Both the position numbers and the translations under genes were made by a program. A stretch of 50,699 nucleotides of DNA, from the sequence record PZ150740.1; one strand, given 5' to 3'. The stretch is from a phage. Below are positions 3,385 through 37,487 of this stretch, piece by piece (the first letter of the stretch is position 1; each line of letters begins with the position of its first letter). Below the pieces are notes generated by a model, which saw nothing but the letters and a program-made list of their open reading frames with translations, made no database searches and was not told where the DNA came from.

Positions 3385-3564
3385 TCATGCTCTATGGATA
3401 TATTCAGCCGTGATAACGATTAGCAAGGAAAATGCTGGAATGCTCCAAATCACTTCCGCAAACGAATTGTCGTAATTCAGCCGGAATCTATGCCGCGCCG
3501 CGTGGATAAGCCACGTAAAAATGAATAACGCCCAGCACAACACAATAATAGTAAAATCTTCCAT
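3385..3564 (-). CDS. small membrane protein (59 aa, below ORF-track cutoff)
   Basis: Hand-translated ORF MEDFTIIVLCWALFIFTWLIH...; fills gap between flanking genes. Confidence 0.3.
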   Translation of the reverse strand: MEDFTIIVLCWALFIFTWLIHAARHRFRLNYDNSFAEVIWSIPAFSLLIVITAEYIHRA

Positions 3565-3585
3565 TGCATTCTCGCTTGTTAAATT

Positions 3586-3795
3586 TTATTGCAATTGCTC
3601 AATCTTTGCCGCCAGTTTATTTAACACGTTCGCCATGCGGCGGGCGCTCTCTGCCGAAAGTATTCCCCGAAAGTCTGGCATCCTGCCATATTCGAAAGTG
3701 CCATCTATAAATATCTGATTTCCACGCTGATAAACGTCGATAGTGTCTCCGTAGTCGTCGGTGAATTTATATTTTGCTGTTTTGTTCTGGTTCAT
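3586..3795 (-). CDS. hypothetical protein
   Basis: ORF track. Confidence 0.5.
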   Translation of the reverse strand: MNQNKTAKYKFTDDYGDTIDVYQRGNQIFIDGTFEYGRMPDFRGILSAESARRMANVLNKLAAKIEQLQ

Positions 3796-3797
3796 GA

Positions 3798-4157
3798 TTA
3801 ATCCTTAAACGCGTGAGCAATTTTGCTGTTAACCTTCGCTTTGATAATCGCGACGCAATAATCAGACAGGCCTCCTCTTGCAATGCGCGATTGCTGATTA
3901 TTAAATTCAATGATGGCCTCGCCAGTTTCGCCATCAATGAAGCGCTCGCGGCCCCAATTGTCTGATATGCGAGCTACACGGGAAACAGCCAGGTAGGGAT
4001 CGTCAATCCCGTAAAATTCCTTGACTGCCTTTTTTGTTAGCTCGTCCTTTTTCGCTACGATTTTCATCGCCACATTGTGACCAATCTGATCTACTGACTG
4101 GTTGCGTTCGATGATATGGCTTACGCGAAAATCAACGTCTTTGTAGCTCTTGAACAT
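3798..4157 (-). CDS. hypothetical protein
   Basis: ORF track. Confidence 0.5.
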   Translation of the reverse strand: MFKSYKDVDFRVSHIIERNQSVDQIGHNVAMKIVAKKDELTKKAVKEFYGIDDPYLAVSRVARISDNWGRERFIDGETGEAIIEFNNQQSRIARGGLSDYCVAIIKAKVNSKIAHAFKD

Positions 4158-4384
4158 TATTTGACTTCCTCAAAGGTTGCGATAAGGTCGGCGTAAGCGC
4201 AAATTGCGTTGCCGTTTTGACCGTTCAGGAACATACGGAATCCTTGATTGTTATTGACGTAAAACGATCCGGTTGATGTTCTCATTTTCTGCGCGGAGTA
4301 GATATGCCCCACTGTGAACATAAAGCCGCAACCTGGCGCTACACTGACACACTTCATTTTTTTCTGGATGATTAAACTTTCCAT
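4157..4384 (-). CDS. hypothetical protein (start adjusted to MESLIIQ)
   Basis: ORF track frame; ATG at 4384 downstream of box unit and RBS-like GAGAGGGGAAA. Confidence 0.45.
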   Translation of the reverse strand: MESLIIQKKMKCVSVAPGCGFMFTVGHIYSAQKMRTSTGSFYVNNNQGFRMFLNGQNGNAICAYADLIATFEEVK

Positions 4385-4414
4385 CGCGTTTCCCCTCTCG
4401 TTGAAAGTAGGGCC

Positions 4415-4458
4415 ATTATACCTGGCCCCACATTTGAGTTTTAACAAAAAGTGCTATT
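4415..4458 (-). promoter_or_regulatory. box promoter unit (-10 TATAAT, 17-bp spacer)
   Basis: Perfect box 4438-4458; hairpin GGGCC/GGCCC around -10. Confidence 0.55.
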
Positions 4459-9699: not shown

Positions 9700-9816
9700 A
9701 TGATAGATAAAGCTATTGATTTCTTTTTTTATTCGATTATTGGTGCGGTTGGCTTTTTGGTTACTGCTGCTGGCCTGGCTATTATCTTAGCTGTTATTAA
9801 GGGGATTATGCGATGA
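9700..9816 (+). CDS. small single-TM peptide (38 aa, not in ORF track)
   Basis: RBS GAGGTGG then ATG; hydrophobic core IIGAVGFLVTAAGLAIILAVI. Confidence 0.35.
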   Translation: MIDKAIDFFFYSIIGAVGFLVTAAGLAIILAVIKGIMR

Positions 9817-9977
9817 GTCAAGACGGATTTTTTGAACGCCTTCAAATGGCAGAAGATGCCGGACTAAATAAAGAGGCGGCGCTTGAGGTGGCATATAAAA
9901 TTAAGACTCTTGATGAGGCTTTAGGTGATATGGATATGGATCTGAATCAAGCGCAATATTTGCAGATCCCACTATGA
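9813..9977 (+). CDS. small acidic protein (54 aa, not in ORF track)
   Basis: ATGA overlap with upstream ORF; hand-translated MSQDGFFERLQ... Confidence 0.35.
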   Translation: MSQDGFFERLQMAEDAGLNKEAALEVAYKIKTLDEALGDMDMDLNQAQYLQIPL

Positions 9978-10171
9978 TTGTTAATGATTGTGGATGCGAT
10001 TTCGATCCTGGTTGTGCGCGCTGTTTTCCGTTTTGAGGTAATTACGATGTATAAAGGTTTAATATTCTCCCTATTGATGGATCTGGTAAAGCCGTTAAAG
10101 ATTGGGCTGATAATGGCTATAAGTGCATTTGCTTTAATGCTGACGGCGGCGATCACGGTGATTACCAGTCA

Positions 10172-10756
10172 GTGCGCATACAGCATGAGAATATCGAATA
10201 CGTTAACGTCTGGATTGATGAAAGATTTTACCACCGCGCGCGCTGGGAGGAATGGGGCATTCCTGACTTTATTATGGCATTTCCACCATGCACCGACCTT
10301 GCAAATAGCGGATCTCGCCATTGGGCCAAAAAACGCCTTGAGAATCCATCGTTCCAGGATGAGGCCGCCGACACTTGCAGGATCGCGGCTGATATAGCTG
10401 ATTATTTCGGTGTTCCTTACATGATCGAAAATCCGGTTGGCAAGTTGTCAACGTTATGGCGAAAGCCTGATTATACGTTCCATCCGTGCGATTACGCTGG
10501 CTATCTGCCGGAAGATGATAAACATCCCGACTTCCCTGATATTATTCCGGCGCGGGATCGCTACTTTAAGAAAACGTGCCTCTGGACTGGCAACGGCTTT
10601 GTTATTCCTCCACGCGCTTTAATCCTGCCGAAAGAGGAAGACAAAGATAATCCAGGCTGGGCCAAAACTGGCGGCAAGTCATCGCGCACAAAGATGATCC
10701 GCTCCCTCACTCCGCGCGGATTTGCTCGCGCCGTCTTTGAGTCAAACTCAAAATAG
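10172..10756 (+). CDS. cytosine-C5 methyltransferase-like protein (catalytic core; N-terminus uncertain, frame open from 10055)
   Basis: FPPC (PC-motif-like), ENP(V)G (ENV-like), PARDRYF and GNGFV motifs in C5-MTase order; no ATG for motif-I region. Confidence 0.4.
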   Translation: MRIQHENIEYVNVWIDERFYHRARWEEWGIPDFIMAFPPCTDLANSGSRHWAKKRLENPSFQDEAADTCRIAADIADYFGVPYMIENPVGKLSTLWRKPDYTFHPCDYAGYLPEDDKHPDFPDIIPARDRYFKKTCLWTGNGFVIPPRALILPKEEDKDNPGWAKTGGKSSRTKMIRSLTPRGFARAVFESNSK

Positions 10757-10796
10757 CACTTTTTGTTAAAAGCCAGGTGTAAAAACCTGGCATAAT
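10752..10796 (+). promoter_or_regulatory. box promoter unit (-10-like CATAAT)
   Basis: Box with 1 mismatch; spacer palindrome GCCAGG-tgtaaaaa-CCTGGC. Confidence 0.55.
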
Positions 10797-10825
10797 CACA
10801 TCGAACAAACAAAGGAGATCTGATC

Positions 10826-11026
10826 ATGAATGTTATCTGTAATGAAACCAACGTATTGATGAAAGGCCGTTTTAAAACGGTTTATCAGAAGATTGCAGGA
10901 AGTAATGATGTGATCGAGGTGGAAGAATTCAGGTTAAGACGCTTGTTAAGGGTAGCCGCTGGCTTCCAGCAAACCGAGATGATTACCGCGCCATTAACAC
11001 AAAAACCGTTCTTTGCACGTTTGTAG
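10826..11026 (+). CDS. hypothetical protein
   Basis: ORF track; box unit 10752-10796 upstream. Confidence 0.5.
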   Translation: MNVICNETNVLMKGRFKTVYQKIAGSNDVIEVEEFRLRRLLRVAAGFQQTEMITAPLTQKPFFARL

Positions 11027-11034
11027 ATCATAAC

Positions 11035-11211
11035 ATGCCGTGCAAAAAGCACTTTAAGCAGGGCAAGCGATACCGAATCGAGAAAGGGCGACCGCTTGGA
11101 AGCGTTGCGGGTTATGTTTTTGATGAGTGCGGCGACCGCTGGAACCTGTACCGTGAAGAGGTCGGATTCTCTGCTGGCGGCTGTTATCTGTTTGAGGGTA
11201 AATATCTGTGA
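11035..11211 (+). CDS. small Cys-containing protein (58 aa, not in ORF track)
   Basis: Hand-translated MPCKKHFKQGKRYRIEKGRPLG... Confidence 0.35.
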   Translation: MPCKKHFKQGKRYRIEKGRPLGSVAGYVFDECGDRWNLYREEVGFSAGGCYLFEGKYL

Positions 11212-11429
11212 TAAACAGTGAAAACCGTTACAAAGTAACGCATTCTACCACAAAGACTTTCAAGCCTGGCGATATAGTCAGGCCCATCAAAAAAACGGCG
11301 GTAGGTTGGCTGATTGGTTTTTCATATCATAAGGCGCTTTACTTTACGTTTAAGGATGGGATTACAGGAGAATGCTACAGCGACCGCCAGCCTGATCGAC
11401 TTCTGGTTGCAATAGAGCGGATCAAATAG
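11208..11429 (+). CDS. hypothetical protein
   Basis: ORF track; stop TAG inside box 11425-11445. Confidence 0.45.
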   Translation: MINSENRYKVTHSTTKTFKPGDIVRPIKKTAVGWLIGFSYHKALYFTFKDGITGECYSDRQPDRLLVAIERIK

Positions 11430-11469
11430 CACTTTTTGACAAAACGGGGTAGTATTGGGCCGTTAAAAT
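11425..11469 (+). promoter_or_regulatory. box promoter unit variant (TTGACA inside box; -10-like TAAAAT)
   Basis: AATAGCACTTTTTGACAAAAC; hairpin GGGCCG/CGGCCC overlaps -10. Confidence 0.5.
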
Positions 11470-11497
11470 TTACGGCCCACAAAGGAGAAGCTAACGA

Positions 11498-13078
11498 ATG
11501 TTTTCATTAGAAACGAACAAATTAACTCCACAGCAAATAATCGCTATGGCTGAAAGCCAGAACCTTTCACCAGTTCGCGTATCAATTCAGGCTAACGGCT
11601 ATCGCCAGTCGTCCAGCTTTTGGGGCGACGTGAAGGATGTAAATAGCGGTCATGATCGCTACCCCGTTATTTCTCTTGGTAATGATATTGATGTTGTAGG
11701 CAAGTTATCACGCAGTATTGCGCGATCCGTTCAATTTCCTGAATCATCGGCTTACATGCACTTTATCGGCTGCATTTCCGCCGCTATGCTTGGACGCTTT
11801 ACGGTTGACTATCACGGAACCGATCAGCCGACTGCGCTTTACGTGGTTACAAGCCAGCCGCCGTCAACTGGTAAATCTGCGATCAACAGTATGGCTATTG
11901 CTCCGATGATTGCGGAAGTTGAGAAGATCAACGAGCAACGCCGCAAGGAAAGAAAGAAAATACAGGCAAAGTTGGCAGGTCTTGCAAAGGAGATGAAAAG
12001 CGAAAGATCCGGCGCTGATATGGAATCTCTATACCAGGAAAAAGAGGATCTGGAGGAGAAGCTGGAAAAGATGTGTGATATAACTTTCCCTGTTTCAGAT
12101 ACAACTCCAGAAGGCTTGGCGAAAATCAACAACAAGCAAGGTAACTTTGCCGTAATATCTGACGAAGCAACAAGTATTAATAGCCTGTTAGGCTTGACCT
12201 ATGCAAATAGCGAAAGGAAGACTAACAGTGAGCTAGTGCTTAAGGCGTGGGATAATGGTCACGTATCAATTGCCCGTGCTAATGCTGACAATAATATGAG
12301 TTTTCGCGCGCTTGGATGCATGAGCGTTATAGCACAGGATGAAACGATAAGCGGTATCATGGACGCTGGATCGCGCGGTATCGGTGTGAGTGAGCGCTTT
12401 TTGTTGGTCCGCGAAGAATCATTCTTAGGCCGTCGCTCATTCATTGATGAAAATGGTGATTCTACCTATGAGGCGGTGGATTCTGAATTGAAAGCCCAAT
12501 ATTATCAATTGGTGCATAACATCATGAGCGAATCAAATATATCGCTGAAAATAAGCCGCTCAGCTATGCGAGTGCTCAACATTGCTCGTCAGGATATGGA
12601 ACCGCATCTTGCAGACGGCGGAAAGTATTCTCATACAATGTTACGCGGTGCGCTGGGTAAAATGGATAAACAGGTGATCAGGCTTGCTTCCGTCCTGCAT
12701 GTTATCCGTAACTGGTTTAATCCTGCCGGATACCCGCAGAAGTCGAAAGAGATCGACGTGGAAACAATGCAAGAGGCGTTGATCATGTTTCAGGAATTGA
12801 GCAAAACATACATTAGCGCCGCCAATGCTTCTGGTTATGCTGGTGATGATGCTGAAATGGGTAAATTGATTGAATTGATCACGAGGCACGGCAAGGCTAA
12901 CAAAGGGATTCTGAATATTCGCGCCCTGTACGAATCAGCGAGAAAGGTAAAACCTTTCGTTGGTCAGGCTGGCGTAATGAAGAGGATAGAGGGGCACTTG
13001 CTGCCAATGCTGGAAGAAAGAAATTATGTTTGTGTGATTAATGGTGTTATTTTTGTCAATCCAATACTGCTGGGATGA
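11498..13078 (+). CDS. large early protein, possible replication-associated ATPase
   Basis: 526 aa; deviant P-loop-like PPSTGKS; placement in early right block; family assignment uncertain. Confidence 0.35.
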   Translation: MFSLETNKLTPQQIIAMAESQNLSPVRVSIQANGYRQSSSFWGDVKDVNSGHDRYPVISLGNDIDVVGKLSRSIARSVQFPESSAYMHFIGCISAAMLGRFTVDYHGTDQPTALYVVTSQPPSTGKSAINSMAIAPMIAEVEKINEQRRKERKKIQAKLAGLAKEMKSERSGADMESLYQEKEDLEEKLEKMCDITFPVSDTTPEGLAKINNKQGNFAVISDEATSINSLLGLTYANSERKTNSELVLKAWDNGHVSIARANADNNMSFRALGCMSVIAQDETISGIMDAGSRGIGVSERFLLVREESFLGRRSFIDENGDSTYEAVDSELKAQYYQLVHNIMSESNISLKISRSAMRVLNIARQDMEPHLADGGKYSHTMLRGALGKMDKQVIRLASVLHVIRNWFNPAGYPQKSKEIDVETMQEALIMFQELSKTYISAANASGYAGDDAEMGKLIELITRHGKANKGILNIRALYESARKVKPFVGQAGVMKRIEGHLLPMLEERNYVCVINGVIFVNPILLG

Positions 13079-13470
13079 TTATGTTTTTGCTTGATCTGTA
13101 TAAATGGTGTGAGTCATACGACTGGTTTAACAGGCAGCACATAGCCAAATTTATCTATCAGCATAGAGAATGTGAGCGGCTCGCACGGGCCGCCGGACTT
13201 ACGCCGCGAATGTTCGCCAGCCTTGCATCTAAGGAATTTTGCGCAAGAATGATGACGGCTGGTTATATAGATGGGGTCTGCGGAAAATACTGGTCCAAAG
13301 GATCGTCAAAGCGGCCTTTCGGATTCGAATTGTATAGCCTGGATGGTATGCGCAACGACTGGATCAGGGATATGGCGAGAATAGGGGAGATGGGCGATGA
13401 TGAATTGTTCCAGGCAAAAGCTGATAGACAAGATCTTGAAGCACTGCGCCGTAAATTCAATATCACATGA
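13075..13470 (+). CDS. hypothetical protein
   Basis: ORF track; ATGA overlap with upstream gene. Confidence 0.5.
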   Translation: MIMFLLDLYKWCESYDWFNRQHIAKFIYQHRECERLARAAGLTPRMFASLASKEFCARMMTAGYIDGVCGKYWSKGSSKRPFGFELYSLDGMRNDWIRDMARIGEMGDDELFQAKADRQDLEALRRKFNIT

Positions 13471-13586
13471 GGATTTTATTCATGCTTTACTTACGCTACT
13501 TTATTCAGATATGCGCGCTTTTAGCACCACTGAACATGTTTTATGCAATGATGATGGTGTATTACTGGTTACGGTAAAGCGTATGG

Positions 13587-13631
13587 AATAGCATTTTTTG
13601 TTAAAACGCCCGGCCTAGTGTCGGGTATATT
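13587..13631 (+). promoter_or_regulatory. box promoter unit (-10-like TATATT)
   Basis: Box with 1 mismatch; 40-bp near-identity to unit at 16802-16846 on the opposite strand. Confidence 0.55.
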
Positions 13632-13667
13632 TGTTTCATCGAAACGAAACAACCAAAAGGTAAAATT

Positions 13668-13892
13668 ATGTCCAGCAAGTTTTTAGTAGTTCGCGTATAT
13701 AATCATGACAACGGATCTTCTGCTGAAATCCCAACAATTTACGACAGGGATTTTGGATGGAGTGAGCAATCGGCGGTTGAAAATGAGCGCAAGATTGCAG
13801 AACTGTACGGCGACACTTGCAGCATTGAAGTAAGGCAGTACGACGAATCGAACAAGCCAACAAACGAAACTCATATGTGGCCCGACGCATAA
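13668..13892 (+). CDS. hypothetical protein
   Basis: ORF track; box unit 13587-13631 upstream; terminator downstream. Confidence 0.5.
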   Translation: MSSKFLVVRVYNHDNGSSAEIPTIYDRDFGWSEQSAVENERKIAELYGDTCSIEVRQYDESNKPTNETHMWPDA

Positions 13893-13898
13893 AAATAA

Positions 13899-13926
13899 AG
13901 GAGGCATTAAGCCTCCTTTTTCTTTT
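13899..13926. terminator. rho-independent terminator (plus strand), overlapping 3' end of spanin gene
   Basis: AGGAGGC-attaa-GCCTCCT followed by TTTTTCTTTT. Confidence 0.5.
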
Positions 13927-14302
13927 CTCTCCAGTAAAGACAAATCAGCACAATTAACACAACCACGCATATGATTACTGGATCGTACCATCTGCCGTTA
14001 TTACCCTGCACGACCTGAATTTTGTCTGCCTTGATGGTATTGGCCTGAATGGTTGATGTTGTGAAATCCTTCTTGCTGGACGTGTCCACCTTGTCAACCG
14101 CAGATTCCTTTATTGTGGTTTCCTGTTTTGTGCTGGCGTCCTGCTTTGCTGTAATGCCAACTGTCTGCTTCACGTTCTCCGCGCCAGCCTGTGCTGTGAT
14201 TTCCGGCTTACTGCCGATTAATCCGGTCAGTGGCGTAACGCTTGAACATCCAGACAAGATCACCGCCATTGCGATTGGTGTAAGTAAAAATTTCTTCATC
14301 AT
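13907..14302 (-). CDS. unimolecular spanin (u-spanin)
   Basis: N-terminal lipoprotein signal (ILSGCSS) plus C-terminal TMD (VIICVVVLIVLICLYW); immediately downstream of endolysin. Confidence 0.6.
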   Translation of the reverse strand: MMKKFLLTPIAMAVILSGCSSVTPLTGLIGSKPEITAQAGAENVKQTVGITAKQDASTKQETTIKESAVDKVDTSSKKDFTTSTIQANTIKADKIQVVQGNNGRWYDPVIICVVVLIVLICLYWREKKKEA

Positions 14303-14303
14303 T

Positions 14304-14788
14304 TCAATCCATTGTGCAATATTTGTATTCGACCTTGCGCCTGTTAAGTAAGCCTTTAGACTTCTCGCGCTTTCCTGTTTTGGGGTTATGGTAATACGTC
14401 CAACGATAAAGCTGATCGCAAGCCTCGTTTAATTTCCCCTGGTTGATGAGTTTCAGCATTGTTGAATTTCTGAAAGCTCCAACTCCTGCATTATAAGTGA
14501 ATGAGTACATTGCTGCACGCATACTATCAGGAATGTCAACCTTAACTTGCTTGTCAACTTCTTTTTTAGCAACCTGGATATGTTTAGCCAACAAAGCATC
14601 ACACTCTTTTTAGTGTACGTTTTCCCCAGGATAACATCTGGTCCGGTTATTCCTGCGCAAACAGTCCATACTCCCGCAATATCTTTGTATGGCTTGTATC
14701 TTACCCCTTCGATCTCTTCAAGAAGTGGAGAAGTCAAGGCAACCGCAACGCCAAAGGCCGCAGCCGCTACCTTGTTCTTTATGCTCAT
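14304..14788 (-). CDS. SAR endolysin (lysozyme), reading frame interrupted by 1-nt frameshift near 14600-14612
   Basis: Two track ORFs in different frames; N-part has SAR-like TMD and [19 protein letters not shown]-part [17 protein letters not shown]; resembles P21-type lysozyme as recalled. Confidence 0.6.
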
Positions 14789-15003
14789 TACTTGCCCCTG
14801 ATTTCAATAGCTTTTTGAATATCACCTTTTTCGATCGCCTCGTGGAATTTTTTACTATCACGCCAGCGAAGGTAAGCGCCCCATGCACCGAATGCAGCCA
14901 TTAAAACAAAGCTGGCAATAGCAATGGTTAACTGCCCTGTAGCTGCGCTTGCGATAGATGAACCGCCAGATCCGGCGGTAGCTGCGTTAATAAAATCTTT
15001 CAT
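14788..15003 (-). CDS. holin (pinholin-like)
   Basis: 71 aa, two hydrophobic segments, Gly/Ala/Ser-rich first TMD; directly upstream of endolysin. Confidence 0.55.
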
Positions 15004-15147
15004 TTTTATTCTCCATATTAATTAAAGTCAATATATTGACCGAATGATAAACTTACATGGTAAAAAATTAAACAAAAAAAGAGGCGACAAACGCCGCCCC
15101 TTTGCAAGTTTTTGATTTAATTTGTCATTGATTTAAATAAAAATTCA

Positions 15148-16265
15148 TCAATTCATCATTTCTGGATAGTGAACAAATCGCCCCACTTCTCCATGCTCTT
15201 TGTCGTAAATGATAACCGCTGCACGGCGTCGAGATCTCCAGCCACCGCGCGCGGCGTATGCGTCTTTTGCCGCCAGGGTGCTATGCACCTCAACGATGCC
15301 AAGCGACGTTTCCGTCACAGTCTGGTGATGCCAGTGCCCTACGTGCGCATACATAGTTTTTGAGTTTCCGAAGTCCTCCCGCCAATCTGACGCGCACATC
15401 ATTAGCAAAGTCTCAGGTTTGCGCACTGTGTGCCCGTGATGGTACGCAAGGAAAGTTTTTCCGTATTGCGTGTGGTGAACAACGCGAGGAGAAACATCAA
15501 CGTAAACGCGCGGCTCGTTCTCATATGCTGCCGCCATTGCTGCGCGTAGCCAAATCATTCCTGATTGGTCGTGATTCCCCTCTACTACCTGGACCTCAAC
15601 ATGTTTATGCTTTAACAGCATTTTATTAATTGCGCGGCGCACTGCACGTATTGCAACGTAAACCAATTTTGCATATCGGCTATCTTGATCAAGTACGTGA
15701 CCGCTTGCAGGTGTCACCGCCTCCAGGCCGTCGCTATGCAGCATATCGCCACCAATCAGGATAACAGCCTTTTCGCTGTCCGGTGCGCACATCAAAGCAT
15801 AGTCGATAAAGTTATTCATAACGCGCTCTGCCGTCGCAGTATCCCAATTTTCGCCGCATTCGTGCTTATGGGCCATAGCGCCTAAGTGCATGTCAAAGAT
15901 CGGATACAATGAAAGCGTTTCATTATAGTTACGCTCCTGCAATGGAACTGGATCTAATCGCGGCACTTCCTCGCTAAATGCCTCCATTGCTGCGCGCATC
16001 AATGCCTCTAATTGCTCTTTATCCTTGCTGGTTTTTGTCCACTTGAGGATTATGTTGCCTTCTTTGTCAGTCATTACTGACTCACCATGAACACCAAAAC
16101 CAGGCGCTCCAATGGTCGATAACTGTCCTTGCTTTGCAAGACGCGCCGCGCGACGCTCGACGCTTCTCACATTCATTCCGTACTCTTGAGCGATCTGTTT
16201 ATATGTCTTACCTGCCGCCCGTTCGATCTTGAGTTGCTCATCTGTAATTTTTACATTTTTCATTC
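15148..16265 (-). CDS. calcineurin-like metallophosphoesterase with N-terminal HTH-like domain
   Basis: Motifs GGDMLHSDG, EGNHD, HHGH; N-terminal segment YKQIAQEYGMNVRSVERRAARL; start adjusted to MKNVKI. Confidence 0.6.
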
Positions 16266-16357
16266 TGCTACCTATCTCATTACTATATGGTACATAACTG
16301 TAACAGCGATGATAACGGGTAACGGTAGAACAAACAAGCGCCACATGATAACTATCC

Positions 16358-16600
16358 TCATTTATAATATTTGCGAGGCTCTCGGATTTTAGCCATTGCC
16401 TCTTTGAAATCAATTTTTGTTGGAACTGCTGGAACTCTCACCATTTTTCGCGGCCTTTCCTTGAGGAAAGTCATCTTATCGCCGCTAATTATGCTCACAT
16501 CTGCAATATCAAAGTATTGCGCGATCTTCTTTATATCGTCGGCTATTCCGCATTCTTTAGCGTGATTCCATACCGCATCTCTACCTTGCTCAACCTTCAT
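16358..16600 (-). CDS. hypothetical protein (start adjusted to MKVEQGR)
   Basis: ORF track frame. Confidence 0.45.
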   Translation of the reverse strand: MKVEQGRDAVWNHAKECGIADDIKKIAQYFDIADVSIISGDKMTFLKERPRKMVRVPAVPTKIDFKEAMAKIREPRKYYK

Positions 16601-16769
16601 GCTTATAATATGCCTCCGCTTGTTCAATTGGCGCGTGACCGTATGCAACTTTCAGTAAAAACATTGCGATGTCCCAATCAAACTGGAACCCTTCCTTTGA
16701 ACCGCCCTCTACTGAACCTTTTGCTACTTCTTGAGCAAGATTAAAAGCGCGTTTATCGAATACCACCAT
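16590..16769 (-). CDS. small protein (59 aa, not in ORF track)
   Basis: Hand-translated MVVFDKRAFNLAQEVAKGS...; RBS GAGGAAATAAAA; downstream of box unit. Confidence 0.4.
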   Translation of the reverse strand: MVVFDKRAFNLAQEVAKGSVEGGSKEGFQFDWDIAMFLLKVAYGHAPIEQAEAYYKHEG

Positions 16770-16801
16770 TTTTATTTCCTCATGTTTGCTTCGTTGAAAT
16801 A

Positions 16802-16846
16802 ATTATGCCCGACACTAGGCCGGGCGTTTTAACAAAAAATGCTATT
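16802..16846 (-). promoter_or_regulatory. box promoter unit (-10-like CATAAT)
   Basis: Box with 1 mismatch; near-identical to unit at 13587-13631. Confidence 0.55.
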
Positions 16847-17102
16847 AGTGGATCATTCCGTGCTGAAAATTCCACGAATCGACAAACTCTTGCATGTCAT
16901 TTCTTATTTGTTCGTGCCATTTTTCAAGCGGTAGTTTTCTTGTCTCCTCAAAGCTCATATCTAATGCGCTTGAAAATTCCCACGGATCGCAATCAATCAT
17001 CTTTTTCACGTTATGGTTTTTATCAAGTGCATCGCACACCATAGCGCGAAATAACAACCATTCGCCAGTTTCATTTAAATAAACGCTTCTCTCTTTTTTC
17101 AT
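16845..17102 (-). CDS. hypothetical protein
   Basis: ORF track; stop in box 16826-16846. Confidence 0.5.
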   Translation of the reverse strand: MKKERSVYLNETGEWLLFRAMVCDALDKNHNVKKMIDCDPWEFSSALDMSFEETRKLPLEKWHEQIRNDMQEFVDSWNFQHGMIH

Positions 17103-17106
17103 CGTG

Positions 17107-17832
17107 TTAGCTCCGTTTGCGTGCGCGACGTTCGGTTACAGAAGGGCAAATATCGCTGATCTTAACGTATCGCGTTTTCTGCTCCTCGCCTTCTTTAAGT
17201 TTGCGCATGACAAAAATCACGCTTCCCTTGTTGTTGCCCTGCACAGGCTCACCAGTCAATCCAGACACAAAGGCGATTCTTCCGGTGCGGGAGTATTCTA
17301 CTCCACCCTCTTCGTAAACCTCGCCAGTGATCCAGATGATTTCAGCCGCGTTTTTCTGCGCTTCATAAAACCATGCTGTAGAGTTGTCGGCTGGCAACAA
17401 AACATCAATTTGGTTGTTGTGCTCCATTTGCTCAATTGCTTTCTTGATAAATGGAGTTGGGTTGCTGTACGGTGGGTTAAGCCATACGTGCTTGTTGCTA
17501 CCCCACCAACGCTTTAAGCAGTTTGTTTCCTTGCTATAGAACTTCTCGCAAACTGCGTTTTCCTGGCTTGCTGCTGCGTCGAGATCGTATTCACCAAATT
17601 CTGATTCCATCCACTCCACGATCTCTTGAGGAGTGCTCCACATATCGCGCACAACGTCCGGCGTGGTGCTTCCAGCGTATCGGTTGCCGCTTACCTTATA
17701 ATATTGATTTGGCTTTACTGCCTGGTAATGGCCTCCAGTTGCAAGGGCATTCCCTATAAACGTTTCTCTCTCCAACTGCTCAAAGCTAACGAATGCGTCA
17801 TGAGTGTCTTTATCTAAAATATCTTTAGCCAT
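17107..17832 (-). CDS. dam: DNA N6-adenine methyltransferase (Dam-like)
   Basis: NPPY motif (WLNPPYSNP); box unit upstream. Confidence 0.75.
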   Translation of the reverse strand: MAKDILDKDTHDAFVSFEQLERETFIGNALATGGHYQAVKPNQYYKVSGNRYAGSTTPDVVRDMWSTPQEIVEWMESEFGEYDLDAAASQENAVCEKFYSKETNCLKRWWGSNKHVWLNPPYSNPTPFIKKAIEQMEHNNQIDVLLPADNSTAWFYEAQKNAAEIIWITGEVYEEGGVEYSRTGRIAFVSGLTGEPVQGNNKGSVIFVMRKLKEGEEQKTRYVKISDICPSVTERRARKRS

Positions 17833-17871
17833 TTCATTTCTCCGCTATTAAAAGCAATCTCGTGTTATTGA

Positions 17872-17916
17872 ATTATGGCGCAATCCATCGCGCCAGTTTT
17901 AACAAAAAGTGCTATT
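17872..17916 (-). promoter_or_regulatory. box promoter unit upstream of Dam gene (-10-like CATAAT)
   Basis: Perfect box 17896-17916; spacer hairpin GGCGC/GCGCC. Confidence 0.55.
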
Positions 17917-18232
17917 TAAGCATGTATTCAATAGCCAACTTAAACTGATTGAATCCGTAGGCGACCGCAGCGAATCCTCCTAAGCTGCGAACGCGACGCA
18001 AAAAAGCCTTTTGTTCATCGCTGACTGGTGATGCTTTCCCCTTGCCTGATTTATTTACTCGTTTGATCTCAATCGCTGCAAAGGGGTATTTTCCGTTTAA
18101 ACCAATCAGGATGATGAAATCGCTTACTCCCTTAACCAAGCCGGACTGCTGATCAATCATCGCCGTTACTTTAGACTTCTCATTCTCGTTTACCGTATGC
18201 CACGCCAGCAAGTAAGGATGAGCATAAGTCAA
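17912..18232 (-). CDS. VRR-NUC domain nuclease
   Basis: KGVSDFII ... IEIK ... SDEQKAFLRRVRSLGG pattern typical of VRR-NUC; start codon uncertain (TTG in track). Confidence 0.6.
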   Translation of the reverse strand: MTYAHPYLLAWHTVNENEKSKVTAMIDQQSGLVKGVSDFIILIGLNGKYPFAAIEIKRVNKSGKGKASPVSDEQKAFLRRVRSLGGFAAVAYGFNQFKLAIEYMLK

Positions 18233-18329
18233 CCACTGAAAACTATCTATCTGGTGATTAACTTCCTTTCTCGTGTCGGTTGATCTCTTTCGTAAAACTC
18301 AAGATAATCGCCTTTATCAGTTATAGCCA

Positions 18330-18860
18330 TTAAACAAACTCCCGTTTTGCAATGTTATCCTCACCTTTGCCGTTTTTGCGATGCGTTACGCGTACAGGAG
18401 GCATGATGTGATGAGCGTATGACATTATTTTACGCGCATTTCTATAGCTCGCCACCATACCAGCAATCTTGCGATCCGGTATGTGCTGCAATGCTATTTT
18501 TCTCCATATCGTCCGGCAAATGTTGCTTTCTGACTCAGGGAAAAATCTTTCGTATGCCTTGAACGTGTCGCCGTTGGCCTCAAGCTCATAGCAAAAAACA
18601 ATTCCTTTCTGGTTTTTCGTCATATCAACGCGGAAAGATTTAACGTTGCACCAATCGTTTTTGGTGTAGTGCTTACCGCTTAACTTCTCGTTAGGATCGA
18701 CAAGAGAAATATCGCAACAACGGCAAACTCTCGCCACTACGTCGTTTTTTGTTCCGCAACCGCGCTTGATTATCTTTTTTGTTCTCTGATCTACCTGGTC
18801 CTCGCAAATTCTGTAAGTCCAAAAATGCTCGCATCTCTTCCCGTTATCGTCTACGTGCAT
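18330..18860 (-). CDS. Cys-rich (zinc-ribbon-like) protein
   Basis: Multiple CxxC-like pairs (CEHF...C, CRCC). Confidence 0.45.
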   Translation of the reverse strand: MHVDDNGKRCEHFWTYRICEDQVDQRTKKIIKRGCGTKNDVVARVCRCCDISLVDPNEKLSGKHYTKNDWCNVKSFRVDMTKNQKGIVFCYELEANGDTFKAYERFFPESESNICRTIWRKIALQHIPDRKIAGMVASYRNARKIMSYAHHIMPPVRVTHRKNGKGEDNIAKREFV

Positions 18861-18909
18861 ACATCGGCGAGCGTAAAAGCTGTTTAGCGTTCCACATATC
18901 GGGCAAGTC

Positions 18910-20325
18910 TTAGGCTCTTTCCGTTTGTAAATCTCTTTTGAAATTGCGCTTGCTCAAGAATTCGATCGAATACAAATCCCCTAACTCATCCATAGTACCT
19001 GCAAAATCCAATACAAGATGATCTTTTTTCTTGAATCCCTGCTCAATGTGCCATTGCTTAAGCAGTCGCATACCGCGCCCCAAAAGCTGGATAAGCAATG
19101 TTAGAGATCCTATCTTTCTCAGTATTACCGAAGTATCCCAAAACGGAACGTTAACGCCAGTGGTAAGCGCCTGTACCTGGAAGATGTATTTTACTTTCCC
19201 CTCGTATGCCTCCCTCAGCCACTCTTTACGCTGATTATCTCCAGTTTTGCCAGTTATGATCCTGTATTCAACGCCTTGCGGCAGTGCGGCGGCGGCCTCC
19301 TTGCAGTGTCTTTCCCCTGCGCATGTAACTAAAACTCCGTTCCTGTCTTTGCATATCTCATGGACTTTAGCCATGATTTTCTGTGTCATTGTTGCGTCTT
19401 GATGGATCTTTTCTTCCATCTTGCGCAATGTTTTAGCGTCAAAGTCTGAAACGCCATCCTCGCTACTGGCTTCGAACTCTGAAAGGTCATACCCCAGGTC
19501 GCCTACGTCGCCGAAATTTGTTGGCACTACCGAACCGAATTTGATTAAGTAGTTTGTGTCTATGTTAGTAACCTGCTCACGCCAGAATCCCTTTTTGTTC
19601 TTATCTTCAACCAGTATTGGAACCACGCCGCGAAATTCAGATCCAGTCATACCGAATATTCGCAATTCGTGCCCGTATGCCTCGCGACACCTGCGCATCA
19701 TTTCCATGATTATTACGGTGTACTGTGTGCGCCCTGTTCCGAACATTCGATCGCCATTGGAATCAAATTGCTGTTCTTCTCCAATCAGTACAGGCAAATC
19801 CTTCTTAGTGGTCATCTGCTGGTAAGATTCATTATTTTCTATCGCGTCCGCGAGATCCTCCCAATCCACCTGGTGACATTCATCAATACCGATAACGTGC
19901 GGAACATAATCACCTAACGACTTAAACAATCCGTTTACTACAGTGCCCTCAGAACCGACTACGATCGGAAAGTATGCGCTTTTTGTTTTCAGTCCGGCAC
20001 AATAGATTGAGTTTGGCACGCCAAGATTGCTGATCTCTTCCGAATCCTGATCAACAATTTCAGCCTGGCGAGCAAGCACCATCATTTTCAATCCCATTTT
20101 GCGGCATTGCGCCGCAACCATCGCAAACATCAATGTTTTGCCAGCCGACACAGAAGCCTTAACAAAGAAAGGATGCTCATAGTTTTTCATGCGCTTTGCG
20201 ATCTCGGCATACGCAACGCACTGATAAGGATAAGGCACTATATTGCCAACCGTGAATCGCTCTTGGATGCTTTTTATTACTGCCTCGCCTAACGCCGATA
20301 TTTGTTTTTCTATATTTGGAATCAT
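18910..20325 (-). CDS. SF2 DNA helicase (DExH-box)
   Basis: Walker A SAGKT; GIDECHQ (DECH box). Confidence 0.8.
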   Translation of the reverse strand: MIPNIEKQISALGEAVIKSIQERFTVGNIVPYPYQCVAYAEIAKRMKNYEHPFFVKASVSAGKTLMFAMVAAQCRKMGLKMMVLARQAEIVDQDSEEISNLGVPNSIYCAGLKTKSAYFPIVVGSEGTVVNGLFKSLGDYVPHVIGIDECHQVDWEDLADAIENNESYQQMTTKKDLPVLIGEEQQFDSNGDRMFGTGRTQYTVIIMEMMRRCREAYGHELRIFGMTGSEFRGVVPILVEDKNKKGFWREQVTNIDTNYLIKFGSVVPTNFGDVGDLGYDLSEFEASSEDGVSDFDAKTLRKMEEKIHQDATMTQKIMAKVHEICKDRNGVLVTCAGERHCKEAAAALPQGVEYRIITGKTGDNQRKEWLREAYEGKVKYIFQVQALTTGVNVPFWDTSVILRKIGSLTLLIQLLGRGMRLLKQWHIEQGFKKKDHLVLDFAGTMDELGDLYSIEFLSKRNFKRDLQTERA

Positions 20326-21981: not shown

Positions 21982-24612
21982 ATGGCGATTTACAGACAAG
22001 GCCAAGCGTCTATGGACGCGCAAGGTTATGTAACTGGTTACGATACAAAATGGCGTGAGCAATTAACATTGATTCGCCCAGGTGCAACTATTTTCTTTCT
22101 TACTCAACCTTTGCAAGCTGCTGTGATTACAGAGGTGATTAGCGATACAAGCATTCGCGCAATTACTACTGGCGGCGCGGTAGTCCAGAAGACAAATTAC
22201 CTGATCTTGCTTCATGACTCGTTGACGGTTGACGGGCTGGCGCAGGACGTAGCGGAAACATTGCGTTACTATCAAAGCAAGGAAACGGAGATTGCTGACG
22301 CGCTTGAATTTTTTAGAGATTTCGATCTTGATGGGTTGAAAGATCTTGTAAATCAGGTGAAACAAGGCGCTGAATCAGCAAAACAAAGCGCTAGTGCCGC
22401 AAAGACTTCTGAAACAAACGCTAAAACATCGGAAACTAATGCCAAAGCATCTGAAAATGCAGCCAATGCAAGTAAGAATGCGGCTAAAACATCGGAAACT
22501 AATGCTGCTAACTCGGCTAGTGCCGCAAAGACTTCTGAAACAAACGCCAAAACATCGGAAACTAATGCCAAAGCATCTGAAAATGCAGCCAATGCAAGTA
22601 AGAATGCGGCTAAAACATCGGAAACTAATGCTGCTAACTCGGCTAGTGCCGCAAAGACTTCTGAAACAAACGCCAAAACATCGGAAACTAATGCCAAAGC
22701 ATCTGAAAATGCAGCCAATGCAAGTAAGAATGCGGCTAAAACATCGGAAACTAATGCTGCTAACTCGGCTAGTGCCGCGAAGACTTCTGAAACAAACGCT
22801 AAAACATCGGAAACTAATGCTGCAAACAGTGCAAACAAGGCTAAAACAGAGGCTGATCGCGCAGCGGCTGCTGCTGGAAGCTCAGAGGCTCAGAATAGAG
22901 TGCCGTATGCTGGTGTAACATTACCTGCGCCTACTGGCGTAAGGGATATGCTCAAGCGGTTGCGCGATACTGTCAAAGGAGGATTCTGGCGCGTCGATGA
23001 TATTACGCAGTTCCCTTCTGGCGAGATGACGCCGTTCAGGTATGGTCCAGGGGTGTGCGGCGGCGCTGGTGACACATTTTTTGCGTTTAACGTTGACTAT
23101 CAGACCTCTCGCGTGAAGGTTTTCGCTGGAAACAATGCCGCGATTAACGGCTCATCTGGAAATGTGGGTGCCATTGAACTGGCGAAGCTGGGTGCTAACG
23201 GTGACGTGGCGATCGGAGACGGCGGGACAGGCGCATCGAACGACCAGGGAGCGCGCGCAAACCTTCAGGTCATGCATGAGCGCCGGGCAACGTTGGTTAG
23301 TGAAGACCTTAACATCCTTCAGGGTGATAAGGCTGGATTTTATTATACTAGCTTATCTGCCAACGCAACGCCGGAGCGTAATTATCCCGTTCAGGAAGCA
23401 GGTTGTCTACTTGTTCAGCGCACTGGCGCTAACGATCCTAAAAGCTGCATACAGACGTTTACAGGATACAATAGCGGGCGTCGTTTTATGCGATGGCTTA
23501 GTAACGCGACTACTGGCATCTGGTCGAAATGGTACGAGTTGTATAACGCGGGGTCGTCGCCGGAATATAACGCTTACGTGAGAGCTAAAAGCGGTGATCG
23601 AATCGTCGAAATGTTTGTAGGAGGCACGGATGTTGGCATTCGCAACCGCACGTCGCAGAAAGTGCTACAGCTGCGTGATGATGGAGGCCTTTCGTATGAC
23701 AACAAGCTGATCGCGTATAACGGACTTGTAGCCAGCGGCACCTTCGCTATGACCGTACCAAGCATTAAAGTTACAACCGCTAATGGCGGTTTTCGTATCG
23801 ACGGAACAGCATCAACAAACAACCAACCGCTGCACGTAACAGGGTACAACTCCGCAGGCACGCGTCTTTGGTTTTTAGGTAAAGATACTGGAACGAGTGC
23901 GTTATTTCTAAATGACATAACGAAAAGCAAGGTTGAACTTATCGATTCTGGGGTTGTGTTAGGTACGAAAGACTTTGCGGGAAAAGCATATGTACAGGCG
24001 GCGAGTTTAGAGATAGACCGACCGAGTGGTAAGTATTTCAAAATGCAGAACGACGGAAACTCATCACACCCTGCAAGTTTCAAATTGTGGGGGAACGGGT
24101 CAGATAGACCGTCTGTTATTGAGTGGGCTTTCGATAACGGCCCTGGGTGGGTTTTTTACGGTCAGTTAAATAAAGATAACTCAAAGCATCTTCAAGTTAA
24201 CGGCCCTGTAAATGCGACAGCATTCAATCAAGCATCTGACAGAGATCTTAAGGACAACATTGAGGAGATTGATAACGCAACTGAATCATTGCGCAAAATG
24301 AGCGGATACACTTACACGCTTAAGGAGAATGGTTTACCTTATGCTGGGGTAATTGCTCAAGAAGTAATGGAGGCAATACCGGAAGCTGTTAGCGGATTCA
24401 CTCGGTACACGGATCTTGCTGGTCCAACTAAGGATGGAAATCAGCTAGTTGGCGAGGAAAGATTCTTATCTGTTGATTATGGCGCTGTTACTGGATTGCT
24501 TGTGAAAGTATGCCGTGAAAGTGACGATCGCATAAGCAAACTTGAAAATGAGGTTGCAGAATTAAAAGATTTACTGTCAAAGCTAATCAACAATCCTACT
24601 ACTCTTAACTAA
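21982..24612 (+). CDS. tail fibre with tandem Ala/Ser/Thr-rich repeats and C-terminal intramolecular chaperone domain
   Basis: 42-aa repeat x3.4; C-terminal [13 protein letters not shown]...YAGVIAQEV...LENEVAELK typical of autocleaving chaperone domains. Confidence 0.8.
22390..22819 (+). repeat. intragenic tandem repeat, 126-bp unit, about 3.4 copies, near-identical
   Basis: Unit starts at 22390, 22516, 22642, 22768; only 1-2 substitutions between copies. Confidence 0.85.
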
Positions 24613-37449: not shown

Positions 37450-37487
37450 TTTAAAACCTCCAGATATTAAAAAGCGCCTTGCGGCGC

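What the first reader, a model, noticed from the sequence alone, without database searches (positions are those of the whole stretch)
13907..15003. Compact lysis cassette: pinholin-like holin, SAR endolysin, unimolecular spanin
The holin (71 aa) has a Gly/Ala/Ser-rich first TMD typical of pinholins that partner SAR endolysins. The endolysin N-terminus is a weakly hydrophobic signal-anchor ([13 protein letters not shown]). The next gene has both an N-terminal lipobox (LSGC) and a C-terminal TMD, the u-spanin architecture I recall as described for phage T1 gp11. Gene ends overlap (ATGA).
Basis: partly seen in the sequence, partly recalled or inferred. Interest (0 to 1): 0.4.

Follow-up and report, generated by a model that had tools for sequence, protein, structure and literature searches.

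The report
T1-type phage lysis cassette, endolysin frameshifted
This is the ordinary, already-described holin / SAR-endolysin / one-piece spanin lysis cassette of a T1-like coliphage, except that in this particular sequence the endolysin gene is broken by a one-base deletion that looks like a sequencing error rather than biology.

Summary
The window is a complete ~50.7 kb Warwickvirus (T1-like, Drexlerviridae) genome. The cassette sits on the minus strand at the stated coordinates.

- **Holin:** 14788-15003, 71 aa.
- **Endolysin:** 14304-14788.
- **Spanin:** 13907-14302, 131 aa.

The three proteins are 55%, 65% and 47% identical to T1 gp13, gp12 and gp11. The endolysin also matches the crystallised SAR endolysin R21 (3HDE, E 5.6e-47). 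Published descriptions of T1-like phages give exactly this reading.

An A6 run is A5 here (14607-14611), which splits the gene into 111-aa and 96-aa ORFs. A second deletion inside a GATC site (14306|14307) removes the ATGA overlap with the spanin. Neither deletion occurs in 61 related phage records, nor in 9 metagenomic contigs with an identical spanin.

The window carries nine such private one-base deletions. They also break the helicase and three other genes, and they cluster at Dam/Dcm motifs and homopolymers (P = 1.5e-4). The most likely cause is assembly error.

Verdict: already known, low interest.

The parts
14788..15003 (-). Holin gene (71 aa), T1 gp13 family. It has a weakly hydrophobic Gly/Ala/Ser-rich segment at residues 4-22, a strong TMD at 25-43 and a charged C-terminal tail.
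   Evidence: ORF. PHROG phrog_2877 'holin', E 3.8e-32. 55% identity to T1 gp13. PF27028 Phage_T1_holin on identical or near-identical proteins. Hydropathy.
15011..15014 (-). GGAG Shine-Dalgarno sequence, 7 nt upstream of the holin ATG.
   Evidence: Read directly from the sequence.
14304..14788 (-). Endolysin gene (GH24 lysozyme, R21/T1 gp12 type), disrupted. Codons 1-61 are in one frame (14606-14788) and codons 62-161 in another (14304-14606).
   Evidence: Split ORFs. Pfam Phage_lysozyme on both pieces. tblastn with the tonijn endolysin gives two frames. Alignment to intact 492-nt genes. The repaired protein matches 3HDE at E 5.6e-47.
14732..14770 (-). Codons for [13 protein letters not shown], the core of the N-terminal signal-anchor-release (SAR) domain (residues 7-19).
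   Evidence: Translation and hydropathy 2.22 over 13 residues. It aligns with the SAR domain of R21 and RrrD.
14663..14710 (-). Codons for the catalytic triad E27-x8-D36-x5-T42.
   Evidence: Regex match on the translation. It aligns with the LEGVSYIPYKDIVGVWT segment of R21.
14607..14611 (-). Frameshift site: a run of 5 A on the gene strand, where all relatives have 6.
   Evidence: Alignment. Indel lists against six independent relatives. All 61 matching phage records lie below 99% identity over the 141-nt query, and the ten rows listed each span 142 nt, i.e. carry the extra base.
14306..14307 (-). Site of a second one-base deletion, inside a GATC (Dam) site. It changes the C-terminus from ...MDLK* to ...MD* and abolishes the ATGA overlap with the spanin start.
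13907..14302 (-). Unimolecular spanin gene (131 aa), T1 gp11 family.
   Evidence: ORF. phrog_1804 'Rz-like spanin', E 4.8e-47. 47% identity to T1 gp11, E 2e-37. 1097 phage records hold a homologue, many annotated as u-spanin.
14246..14257 (-). Lipobox LSGC. Cys19 is the lipoylation site, and +2 is Ser, which predicts outer-membrane sorting.
   Evidence: Regex and translation. The same lipobox is reported as wild type for T1 gp11 (PMC6139136).
13931..13987 (-). C-terminal transmembrane domain of the spanin (residues 106-124).
   Evidence: Hydropathy 2.46 over 19 residues. Modelled as a helix at 108-130, with block-mean pLDDT 87 and 81 for residues 111-130.
13897..13919 (.). Bidirectional intrinsic-terminator-like hairpin at the end of the cassette. 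The spanin stop codon lies in its loop.
   Evidence: T1 has an annotated terminator overlapping the end of gene 11.
15078..15103 (-). Terminator-like hairpin between the upstream DNA-repair exonuclease gene and the holin.

Best explanation
This is the standard lysis cassette of a T1-like (Warwickvirus) coliphage.

Inferred mechanism, by homology:
1. The 71-aa holin accumulates in the inner membrane.
2. The endolysin is exported by Sec and held inactive on the periplasmic face by its weakly hydrophobic N-terminal SAR domain.
3. When the holin triggers and collapses the membrane potential, the SAR domain leaves the bilayer. The GH24 muramidase (E27/D36/T42) then refolds and degrades the peptidoglycan.
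4. [quoted passage not shown] Once the peptidoglycan mesh is gone, it is free to disrupt the outer membrane, probably by fusing it with the inner membrane.

The endolysin gene as written in this window is frameshifted (A6 to A5 at 14607-14611) and carries a second deletion in a GATC site. These are most likely consensus errors of the assembly, not features of the phage. The deletion-only pattern at homopolymers and methylation motifs is typical of nanopore data. The real phage almost certainly encodes the intact 163-aa enzyme seen in all relatives.
For: Identity of the cassette:
- The region is 98% identical in DNA to many Warwickvirus genomes annotated holin / endolysin / (u-)spanin.
- It is syntenic and homologous with T1 genes 13, 12 and 11.
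- The endolysin matches R21 structures 3HDE and 3HDF and RrrD 4ZPU.
- PHROG and Pfam hits agree.
- The lipobox, TMDs and catalytic triad are present.
- T1 gene 11 complements a lambda RzRz1 defect, and its wild-type lipobox is LSGC (PMC6139136).
- The exonuclease-holin-endolysin-spanin module is present in 508 of 522 Drexlerviridae (PMC13164509).

Frameshift as artefact:
- Nine one-base differences private to the window are all deletions.
- They split five genes conserved intact in relatives. One is the 665-aa ATP-dependent helicase, hit by two deletions.
- The shifted frames keep 90-100% amino-acid identity to tonijn downstream of the breaks, 100% for the endolysin.
- Five of the nine lie within 2 nt of a GATC or CCWGG motif, against a 6.9% background (P = 1.5e-4). 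The other four are in homopolymers.
- The phage encodes a Dam methylase.
- The truncated ORFs are absent from a collection of about 15 billion proteins.
- All 9 contigs with a 100% identical spanin carry an intact 163-aa endolysin overlapping the spanin by 4 nt.
- None of 61 phage records share the A5 allele.
- DNA-modification motifs such as GATC cause errors in nanopore reads and assemblies (PMC11610603).
Against: - No reads are available, so the sequencing platform and the error status are inferred.
- The gene-breaking deletions are confined to 9.9-19 kb of the window, and I cannot explain why.
- The pinholin mode of the holin and the SAR behaviour of T1-type endolysins are predictions in the literature, not experiments on this family (PMC11447400 words them as 'proposed' and 'predicted').
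- The single-sequence structure model of the holin shows one long helix (15-58) rather than a hairpin.
Confidence: 0.85

Rival explanations
1. The frameshifts are real. The window would then be a defective or degenerating genome, or a mutant stock, whose endolysin is a pseudogene, so the cassette is non-functional.
For: The deletions are present in the sequence as given. Homopolymer slippage is also a genuine mutational mechanism.
Against: - At least five genes are broken at once, including a helicase hit twice. Drexlerviridae are virulent phages that must propagate to be sequenced.
- The downstream frames show no decay.
- The enrichment at Dam/Dcm motifs has no mutational rationale but a known technical one (PMC11610603).
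- The allele appears nowhere else.
Confidence: 0.1
2. The A5 allele is real and is decoded by -1 ribosomal slippage on U-AAA-AAG (tRNA-Lys slipping from AAG to AAA). This would yield exactly the wild-type ...TKK|ECD... protein at low level, a way of dosing the endolysin.
For: A -1 shift at AAA-AAG would restore the wild-type amino-acid sequence (read). AAA-AAG is the efficient slippery pair of E. coli dnaX and IS elements (general knowledge).
Against: - The heptamer is not canonical: U, not A, precedes it.
- The downstream RNA has no unusual structure (z = +0.41).
- No relative uses this arrangement.
- The same genome has eight other private deletions that cannot be rescued this way.
Confidence: 0.02
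3. The holin is not a pinholin. It would be a single-TMD (N-out, C-in) holin, or one that forms large holes, and the Gly/Ala/Ser-rich N-terminus would be a periplasmic tail rather than a releasable TMD1.
For: - The T1 GenBank record annotates gp13 as 'contains single transmembrane domain'.
- Only one segment is strongly hydrophobic.
- There is no charged or polar loop between segments 4-22 and 25-43. The AlphaFold model gives a continuous helix 15-58.
- There is no sequence similarity to the S21-type pinholin.
Against: - The hydropathy pair (0.78 / 1.89) and the 71-aa length closely mirror those of the S21-like EssD (0.74 / 1.87).
- The partner is a SAR endolysin, which needs only depolarisation.
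- Specialists annotate T1-like holins as class II pinholins (PMC4559738, PMC11447400, PMC13164509).
Confidence: 0.25

Closest known systems
Phage T1 lysis cassette: gp13 holin, gp12 endolysin, gp11 u-spanin
   Same: Same gene order, downstream of the DNA-repair exonuclease gene. Sizes match (71 / 162-163 / 131-133 aa). Identities are 55%, 65% and 47%. The LSGC lipobox is identical. A terminator overlaps the spanin 3' end.
   Different: T1 (Tunavirus) has extra genes (14, 15) between the exonuclease and the holin, whereas this window has only a 145-bp spacer. In this window the endolysin is frameshifted, probably through an error.
Warwickvirus genomes (tonijn, JK16, SECphi27, swan01, the JLBYU series)
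   Same: About 98% DNA identity over the cassette and the same annotation; for example JLBYU01 reads 'putative holin / putative endolysin / putative unimolecular spanin'.
   Different: They have A6 and an intact GATC, giving a 163-aa endolysin with a 4-nt ATGA overlap onto the spanin.
Phage 21 / DLP12 pinholin-SAR endolysin system (S21/EssD, R21/RrrD, Rz-Rz1)
   Same: The endolysin is a clear homologue of R21 and RrrD, SAR domain and catalytic triad included (E 5.6e-47). The holin has the same length and hydropathy pattern as EssD.
   Different: The holin has no sequence similarity to S21/EssD, no dual-start motif and no polar loop between the two hydrophobic segments. The linker between the SAR domain and the catalytic Glu is 6 residues shorter than in R21. 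The spanin is unimolecular rather than a two-component Rz/Rz1.
Phage P1 Lyz (SAR endolysin regulated by disulfide isomerisation)
   Same: GH24 fold with an N-terminal SAR domain; weak sequence match to 1XJT and 1XJU (E about 2e-4).
   Different: This SAR domain has no cysteine (Cys at 44, 63, 124 and 158 only). Regulation is therefore expected to be of the R21 (steric/refolding) type, not thiol-based.

Membership tests
T1 gp11 u-spanin family | N-terminal lipoprotein signal with a lipobox [LVI][ASTVI][GAS]C | tested here: met
   LSGC at residues 16-19, preceded by MMKK and a hydrophobic h-region, with Ser at +2. Identical to the T1 gp11 wild-type lipobox (PMC6139136).
T1 gp11 u-spanin family | C-terminal transmembrane domain | tested here: met
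   Residues 106-124, hydropathy 2.46. Modelled as a helix at 108-130.
T1 gp11 u-spanin family | At least 40% identity over at least 40% of the periplasmic domain to a family member (family criterion of PMC6139136) | tested here: met
   47% identity over 126 aligned residues to T1 gp11, E 2e-37.
T1 gp11 u-spanin family | No periplasmic cysteine | tested here: met
   Cysteines only at 19 (lipoylated) and at 112 and 121 (inside the TMD).
T1 gp11 u-spanin family | Periplasmic domain dominated by beta strands | tested here: inconclusive
   The single-sequence AlphaFold model has pLDDT below 50 over most of residues 27-91 and no secondary structure there.
T1 gp11 u-spanin family | Disrupts the outer membrane (complements lambda Rz/Rz1) | not testable with these tools
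   Shown for T1 gp11 only (PMC6139136).
SAR endolysin, R21 type (GH24) | T4-lysozyme-like fold with an E-x8-D/C-x5-T catalytic triad | tested here: met
   E27-x8-D36-x5-T42. Pfam PF00959 on both fragments. 3HDE at E 5.6e-47.
SAR endolysin, R21 type (GH24) | N-terminal weakly hydrophobic, Gly/Ala-rich TMD that is not cleaved, after a basic N-terminus | tested here: met
   MSIKNK followed by [17 protein letters not shown]. It aligns with the SAR domain of R21 and RrrD. Absence of cleavage is inferred, not tested.
SAR endolysin, R21 type (GH24) | One continuous reading frame encoding the SAR domain plus both lysozyme lobes | tested here: not met
   Frameshift at 14607-14611. Met in all relatives examined. 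Judged a sequence error.
SAR endolysin, R21 type (GH24) | Release from the membrane and activation on depolarisation | not testable with these tools
   Known for R21. T1 gp12 is described only as 'predicted' (PMC11447400).
Pinholin (functional class, prototype S21 68) | Small holin with two TMDs (N-in, C-in), the first being weakly hydrophobic and releasable | tested here: inconclusive
   Segment 4-22 has hydropathy 0.78 and TMD 25-43 has 1.89, against 0.74 and 1.87 in EssD. However, there is no polar loop between them, and the AlphaFold model shows one continuous helix at 15-58. T1 gp13 is annotated as single-TMD in GenBank.
Pinholin (functional class, prototype S21 68) | Sequence homology to S21 | tested here: not met
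   BLASTP finds no alignment with E <= 100. The holin instead belongs to phrog_2877 and PF27028 Phage_T1_holin. Pinholin is a functional class, so this does not exclude it.
Pinholin (functional class, prototype S21 68) | Paired with a SAR endolysin | tested here: met
   The adjacent gene is an R21 homologue.
Pinholin (functional class, prototype S21 68) | Forms small (about 2 nm) holes that depolarise the membrane but do not pass folded endolysin | not testable with these tools
   I found no experimental report for T1-type holins in the library.

The most novel reading that the evidence does not exclude
The A5 allele is genuine, and the endolysin is made only through low-level -1 ribosomal frameshifting at U-AAA-AAG, which would reproduce the wild-type ...TKK-ECD... 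sequence. This would be a translational throttle on a SAR endolysin.
Probability: 0.02. Interest if true: 0.5.

Novelty: already known. Interest (0 to 1): 0.08.

Why it matters
It matters little for biology. The cassette is the textbook T1-type pinholin / SAR-endolysin / u-spanin module, present in about 97% of Drexlerviridae (508 of 522).

The practical value is for quality control:
- This genome sequence carries at least nine probable one-base deletion errors. They falsely split the endolysin, a helicase and three other genes.
- Automatic annotation would therefore report a phage with a truncated lysin.

Tried and rejected
- **Programmed -1 frameshifting at the A run.** Rejected as the main reading. 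The heptamer is non-canonical, there is no downstream structure, no relative shares it, and eight other private deletions occur in the same genome.
- **A compensating insertion within the endolysin.** None was found; both gaps are deletions.
- **The exact truncated ORFs elsewhere.** Not in the collection of about 15 billion proteins.
- **Sequence relation of the holin to S21/EssD.** None. The only Pfam hit in the local copy was a sub-threshold DUF3262 match.
- **AlphaFold on single sequences** for the beta-rich spanin domain and the holin hairpin. Both were uninformative for the question asked.
- **The J Virol 2018 paper on T1 gp11 localisation** (PMC6206483). Not held in the library.
- **A promoter for the cassette.** Promoter-like matches were at the chance level (3 found against 3.1 expected).

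Full report
**What is at the coordinates**

Three back-to-back minus-strand genes fill 13907-15003.
- A 71-aa ORF lies at 14788-15003.
- A lysozyme-like gene runs from the ATG at 14786-14788 down to 14304.
- A 131-aa ORF lies at 13907-14302.

A GGAG sits 7 nt upstream of the first ATG. Terminator-like hairpins flank the block at 15078-15103 and 13897-13919, and the second is bidirectional and contains the last gene's stop codon. PHROGs calls the three genes holin (phrog_2877, E 3.8e-32), endolysin (phrog_7) and Rz-like spanin (phrog_1804, E 4.8e-47). Pfam finds Phage_lysozyme.

**What the window is**

The cassette is 98% identical in DNA to dozens of Warwickvirus genomes (Drexlerviridae, Tempevirinae), such as tonijn, JK16, SECphi27, swan01 and the JLBYU series. 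These genomes annotate the genes as holin, endolysin and (unimolecular) spanin. Searches with both halves of the window show it is a whole genome of this genus at about 96% identity.

- *Holin.* Residues 4-22 ([19 protein letters not shown]) are 79% Gly/Ala/Ser/Thr with mean hydropathy 0.78. Residues 25-43 form a strong TMD (1.89), and the C-terminal tail is charged.
- *Endolysin.* It starts [23 protein letters not shown] and carries E27-x8-D36-x5-T42.
- *Spanin.* It has lipobox LSGC (Cys19, Ser at +2), a C-terminal TMD at 106-124 (hydropathy 2.46) and no periplasmic cysteine.

The endolysin is not one ORF. The frame opened at 14788 ends at 14453 after 111 aa, and only the first 61 or so residues are lysozyme. 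The remaining 100 residues are in another frame at 14304-14606.

Alignment with the intact 492-nt genes of tonijn and JLBYU01 shows two one-base deletions.
- ACT-AAA-AAA-GAG has become ACT-AAA-AAG-AG. That is A6 to A5, at window 14607-14611.
- GGATCTGAAATGA has become GGATTGAAATGA. A base is lost inside a GATC site, at 14306|14307.

The second deletion shortens the C-terminus from MDLK* to MD*. It also moves the stop to TGA 14304-14306, one base before the spanin ATG. The ATGA overlap seen in relatives is therefore absent here. At the holin/endolysin junction, TAATG shares a single base.

**Is the frameshift biology or artefact?**

I compared the whole window with tonijn, JLBYU10 and four metagenomic contigs. 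Nine one-base differences are private to the window, at 9944, 10076, 10931, 14307, 14607, 15074, 18282, 18921 and 18969. All nine are deletions.

The evidence points to artefact:
- tblastn with the tonijn proteins shows five genes split across frames: the ATP-dependent helicase, VRR-NUC, the endolysin, and the gp40 and gp42 homologues. The helicase is 665 aa in relatives but forms 471-aa and 176-aa ORFs here, after two deletions 48 nt apart.
- The shifted frames keep 90-100% amino-acid identity to tonijn downstream of each break, and 100% for the endolysin.
- Five of the nine deletions lie within 2 nt of a GATC or CCWGG motif, against 6.9% of positions by chance (binomial P = 1.5e-4). The other four are in homopolymers.
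- The phage encodes a Dam methylase (17107-17832).
- The two truncated ORFs are absent from a collection of about 15 billion proteins, whereas the exact holin and spanin are present.
- All nine contigs carrying a 100% identical spanin have an intact 163-aa endolysin overlapping the spanin by 4 nt. Those long enough also have intact helicase and VRR-NUC genes.
- None of 61 phage records share the A5 allele.
- Modification motifs such as GATC are documented causes of errors in nanopore reads and assemblies (PMC11610603).

I conclude that the deletions are consensus errors. Platform and error status remain inferred, because no reads are available. I cannot explain why all the gene-breaking deletions fall within 9.9-19 kb.

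**Alternative readings of the frameshift**

A real pseudogene is unlikely. A virulent phage could hardly propagate with five broken genes, and the motif bias has no mutational rationale.

A -1 ribosomal slip at U-AAA-AAG would regenerate the exact wild-type sequence, which makes it an attractive idea. Several points count against it:
- The heptamer is non-canonical.
- The downstream RNA is unremarkable (z = +0.41).
- No relative is built this way.
- It cannot rescue the other broken genes.

**Comparison with known systems**

- *T1.* Against T1, the holin, the intact-relative endolysin and the spanin are 55%, 65% and 47% identical to gp13, gp12 and gp11. The order is the same, downstream of the DNA-repair exonuclease.
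- *R21.* The repaired endolysin matches the crystallised SAR endolysin R21 (3HDE E 5.6e-47; 3HDF) and E. coli RrrD (4ZPU). The alignment runs through the SAR domain, with a linker 6 residues shorter before the catalytic Glu. P1 Lyz is only a distant match, and this SAR domain has no cysteine, so R21-type rather than thiol-based regulation is expected.
- *Spanin family.* The spanin meets the family criteria of Kongari et al. (PMC6139136): lipobox, C-terminal TMD, more than 40% identity to gp11 and no periplasmic cysteine. That paper also records that T1 gene 11 complements lambda RzRz1 and that its wild-type lipobox is LSGC.
- *Module frequency.* The exonuclease-holin-endolysin-spanin module is found in 508 of 522 Drexlerviridae (PMC13164509).

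**The pinholin label**

This is the weakest element of the reading.
- *For.* The literature calls T1-type holins 'proposed' class II pinholins (PMC11447400, PMC4559738). Length and hydropathy here closely mirror the S21-like EssD (0.74 / 1.87 against 0.78 / 1.89).
- *Against.* There is no sequence similarity to EssD, no polar loop between the two segments and no dual-start motif. The T1 GenBank record says 'single transmembrane domain'. A single-sequence AlphaFold model gives one continuous helix at 15-58.

I therefore treat 'works like a pinholin' as plausible (about 0.7) but untested. The AlphaFold model of the spanin was uninformative for the periplasmic domain.

**Mechanism (inferred by homology, nothing shown here)**

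1. The holin accumulates in the inner membrane.
2. The endolysin is exported and tethered inactive by its SAR domain.
3. Holin triggering depolarises the membrane. The SAR domain exits, and the muramidase refolds and degrades the murein.
4. The u-spanin bridges the two membranes through lipoylated Cys19 and its C-terminal TMD. It is then free to disrupt the outer membrane, probably by fusing it with the inner membrane (model of PMC6139136).

**Verdict**

The finding is a correct recognition of an already-described cassette. Novelty is 'already known' and interest is low.

Noticed in passing
window 18330-20325 (-): The ATP-dependent helicase is 665 aa in tonijn and in contigs L006 and L007. Here it is split into 471-aa and 176-aa ORFs by two private one-base deletions at 18969 (GATCG[A]AA) and 18921 (C3 to C2).
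   Followed up: yes
window 17912-18330 (-), 9813-10033 (+), 10826-11208 (+): The VRR-NUC gene and the homologues of tonijn gp42 and gp40 are also split by private one-base deletions: 18282 next to GATC, 9944 next to GATC, and 10931 inside CCAGG.
   Followed up: yes
window 9900-19000: All gene-breaking private deletions fall in this 9-kb stretch (methylase, lysis and replication genes). The structural half (25-50 kb) has no split genes in tblastn with the tonijn proteins. The cause is unknown; uneven coverage or partial polishing is possible.
   Followed up: partly
window 15004-15147: Only a 145-bp spacer with a terminator-like hairpin separates the DNA-repair exonuclease gene from the holin. 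There is no standalone SH3-domain gene here, whereas PMC13164509 reports one next to the lysis module in 188 of 522 Drexlerviridae.
   Followed up: partly
window 13668-13919: A conserved 74-aa hypothetical ORF (13668-13892, +) converges on the spanin gene. The two share one bidirectional terminator hairpin (13897-13919), whose loop holds the spanin stop codon.
   Followed up: partly
whole window: There are 297 GATC and 122 CCWGG sites in 50.7 kb. On equal base frequencies about 198 GATC would be expected. The genome encodes a Dam-type methylase (17107-17832) and a second methyltransferase homologue.
   Followed up: no
window 22400-24150 and 3400-4450: These stretches have no megablast-level match to tonijn or JLBYU10. 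They are variable regions (tail-fibre and small early genes) among otherwise about 96% identical genomes.
   Followed up: no
window 37469-37474: An A6 to A5 difference against both tonijn and JLBYU10, just upstream of the tape-measure gene. It lies in or near the tape-measure chaperone frameshift-extension region, and I did not check whether it affects that product.
   Followed up: no
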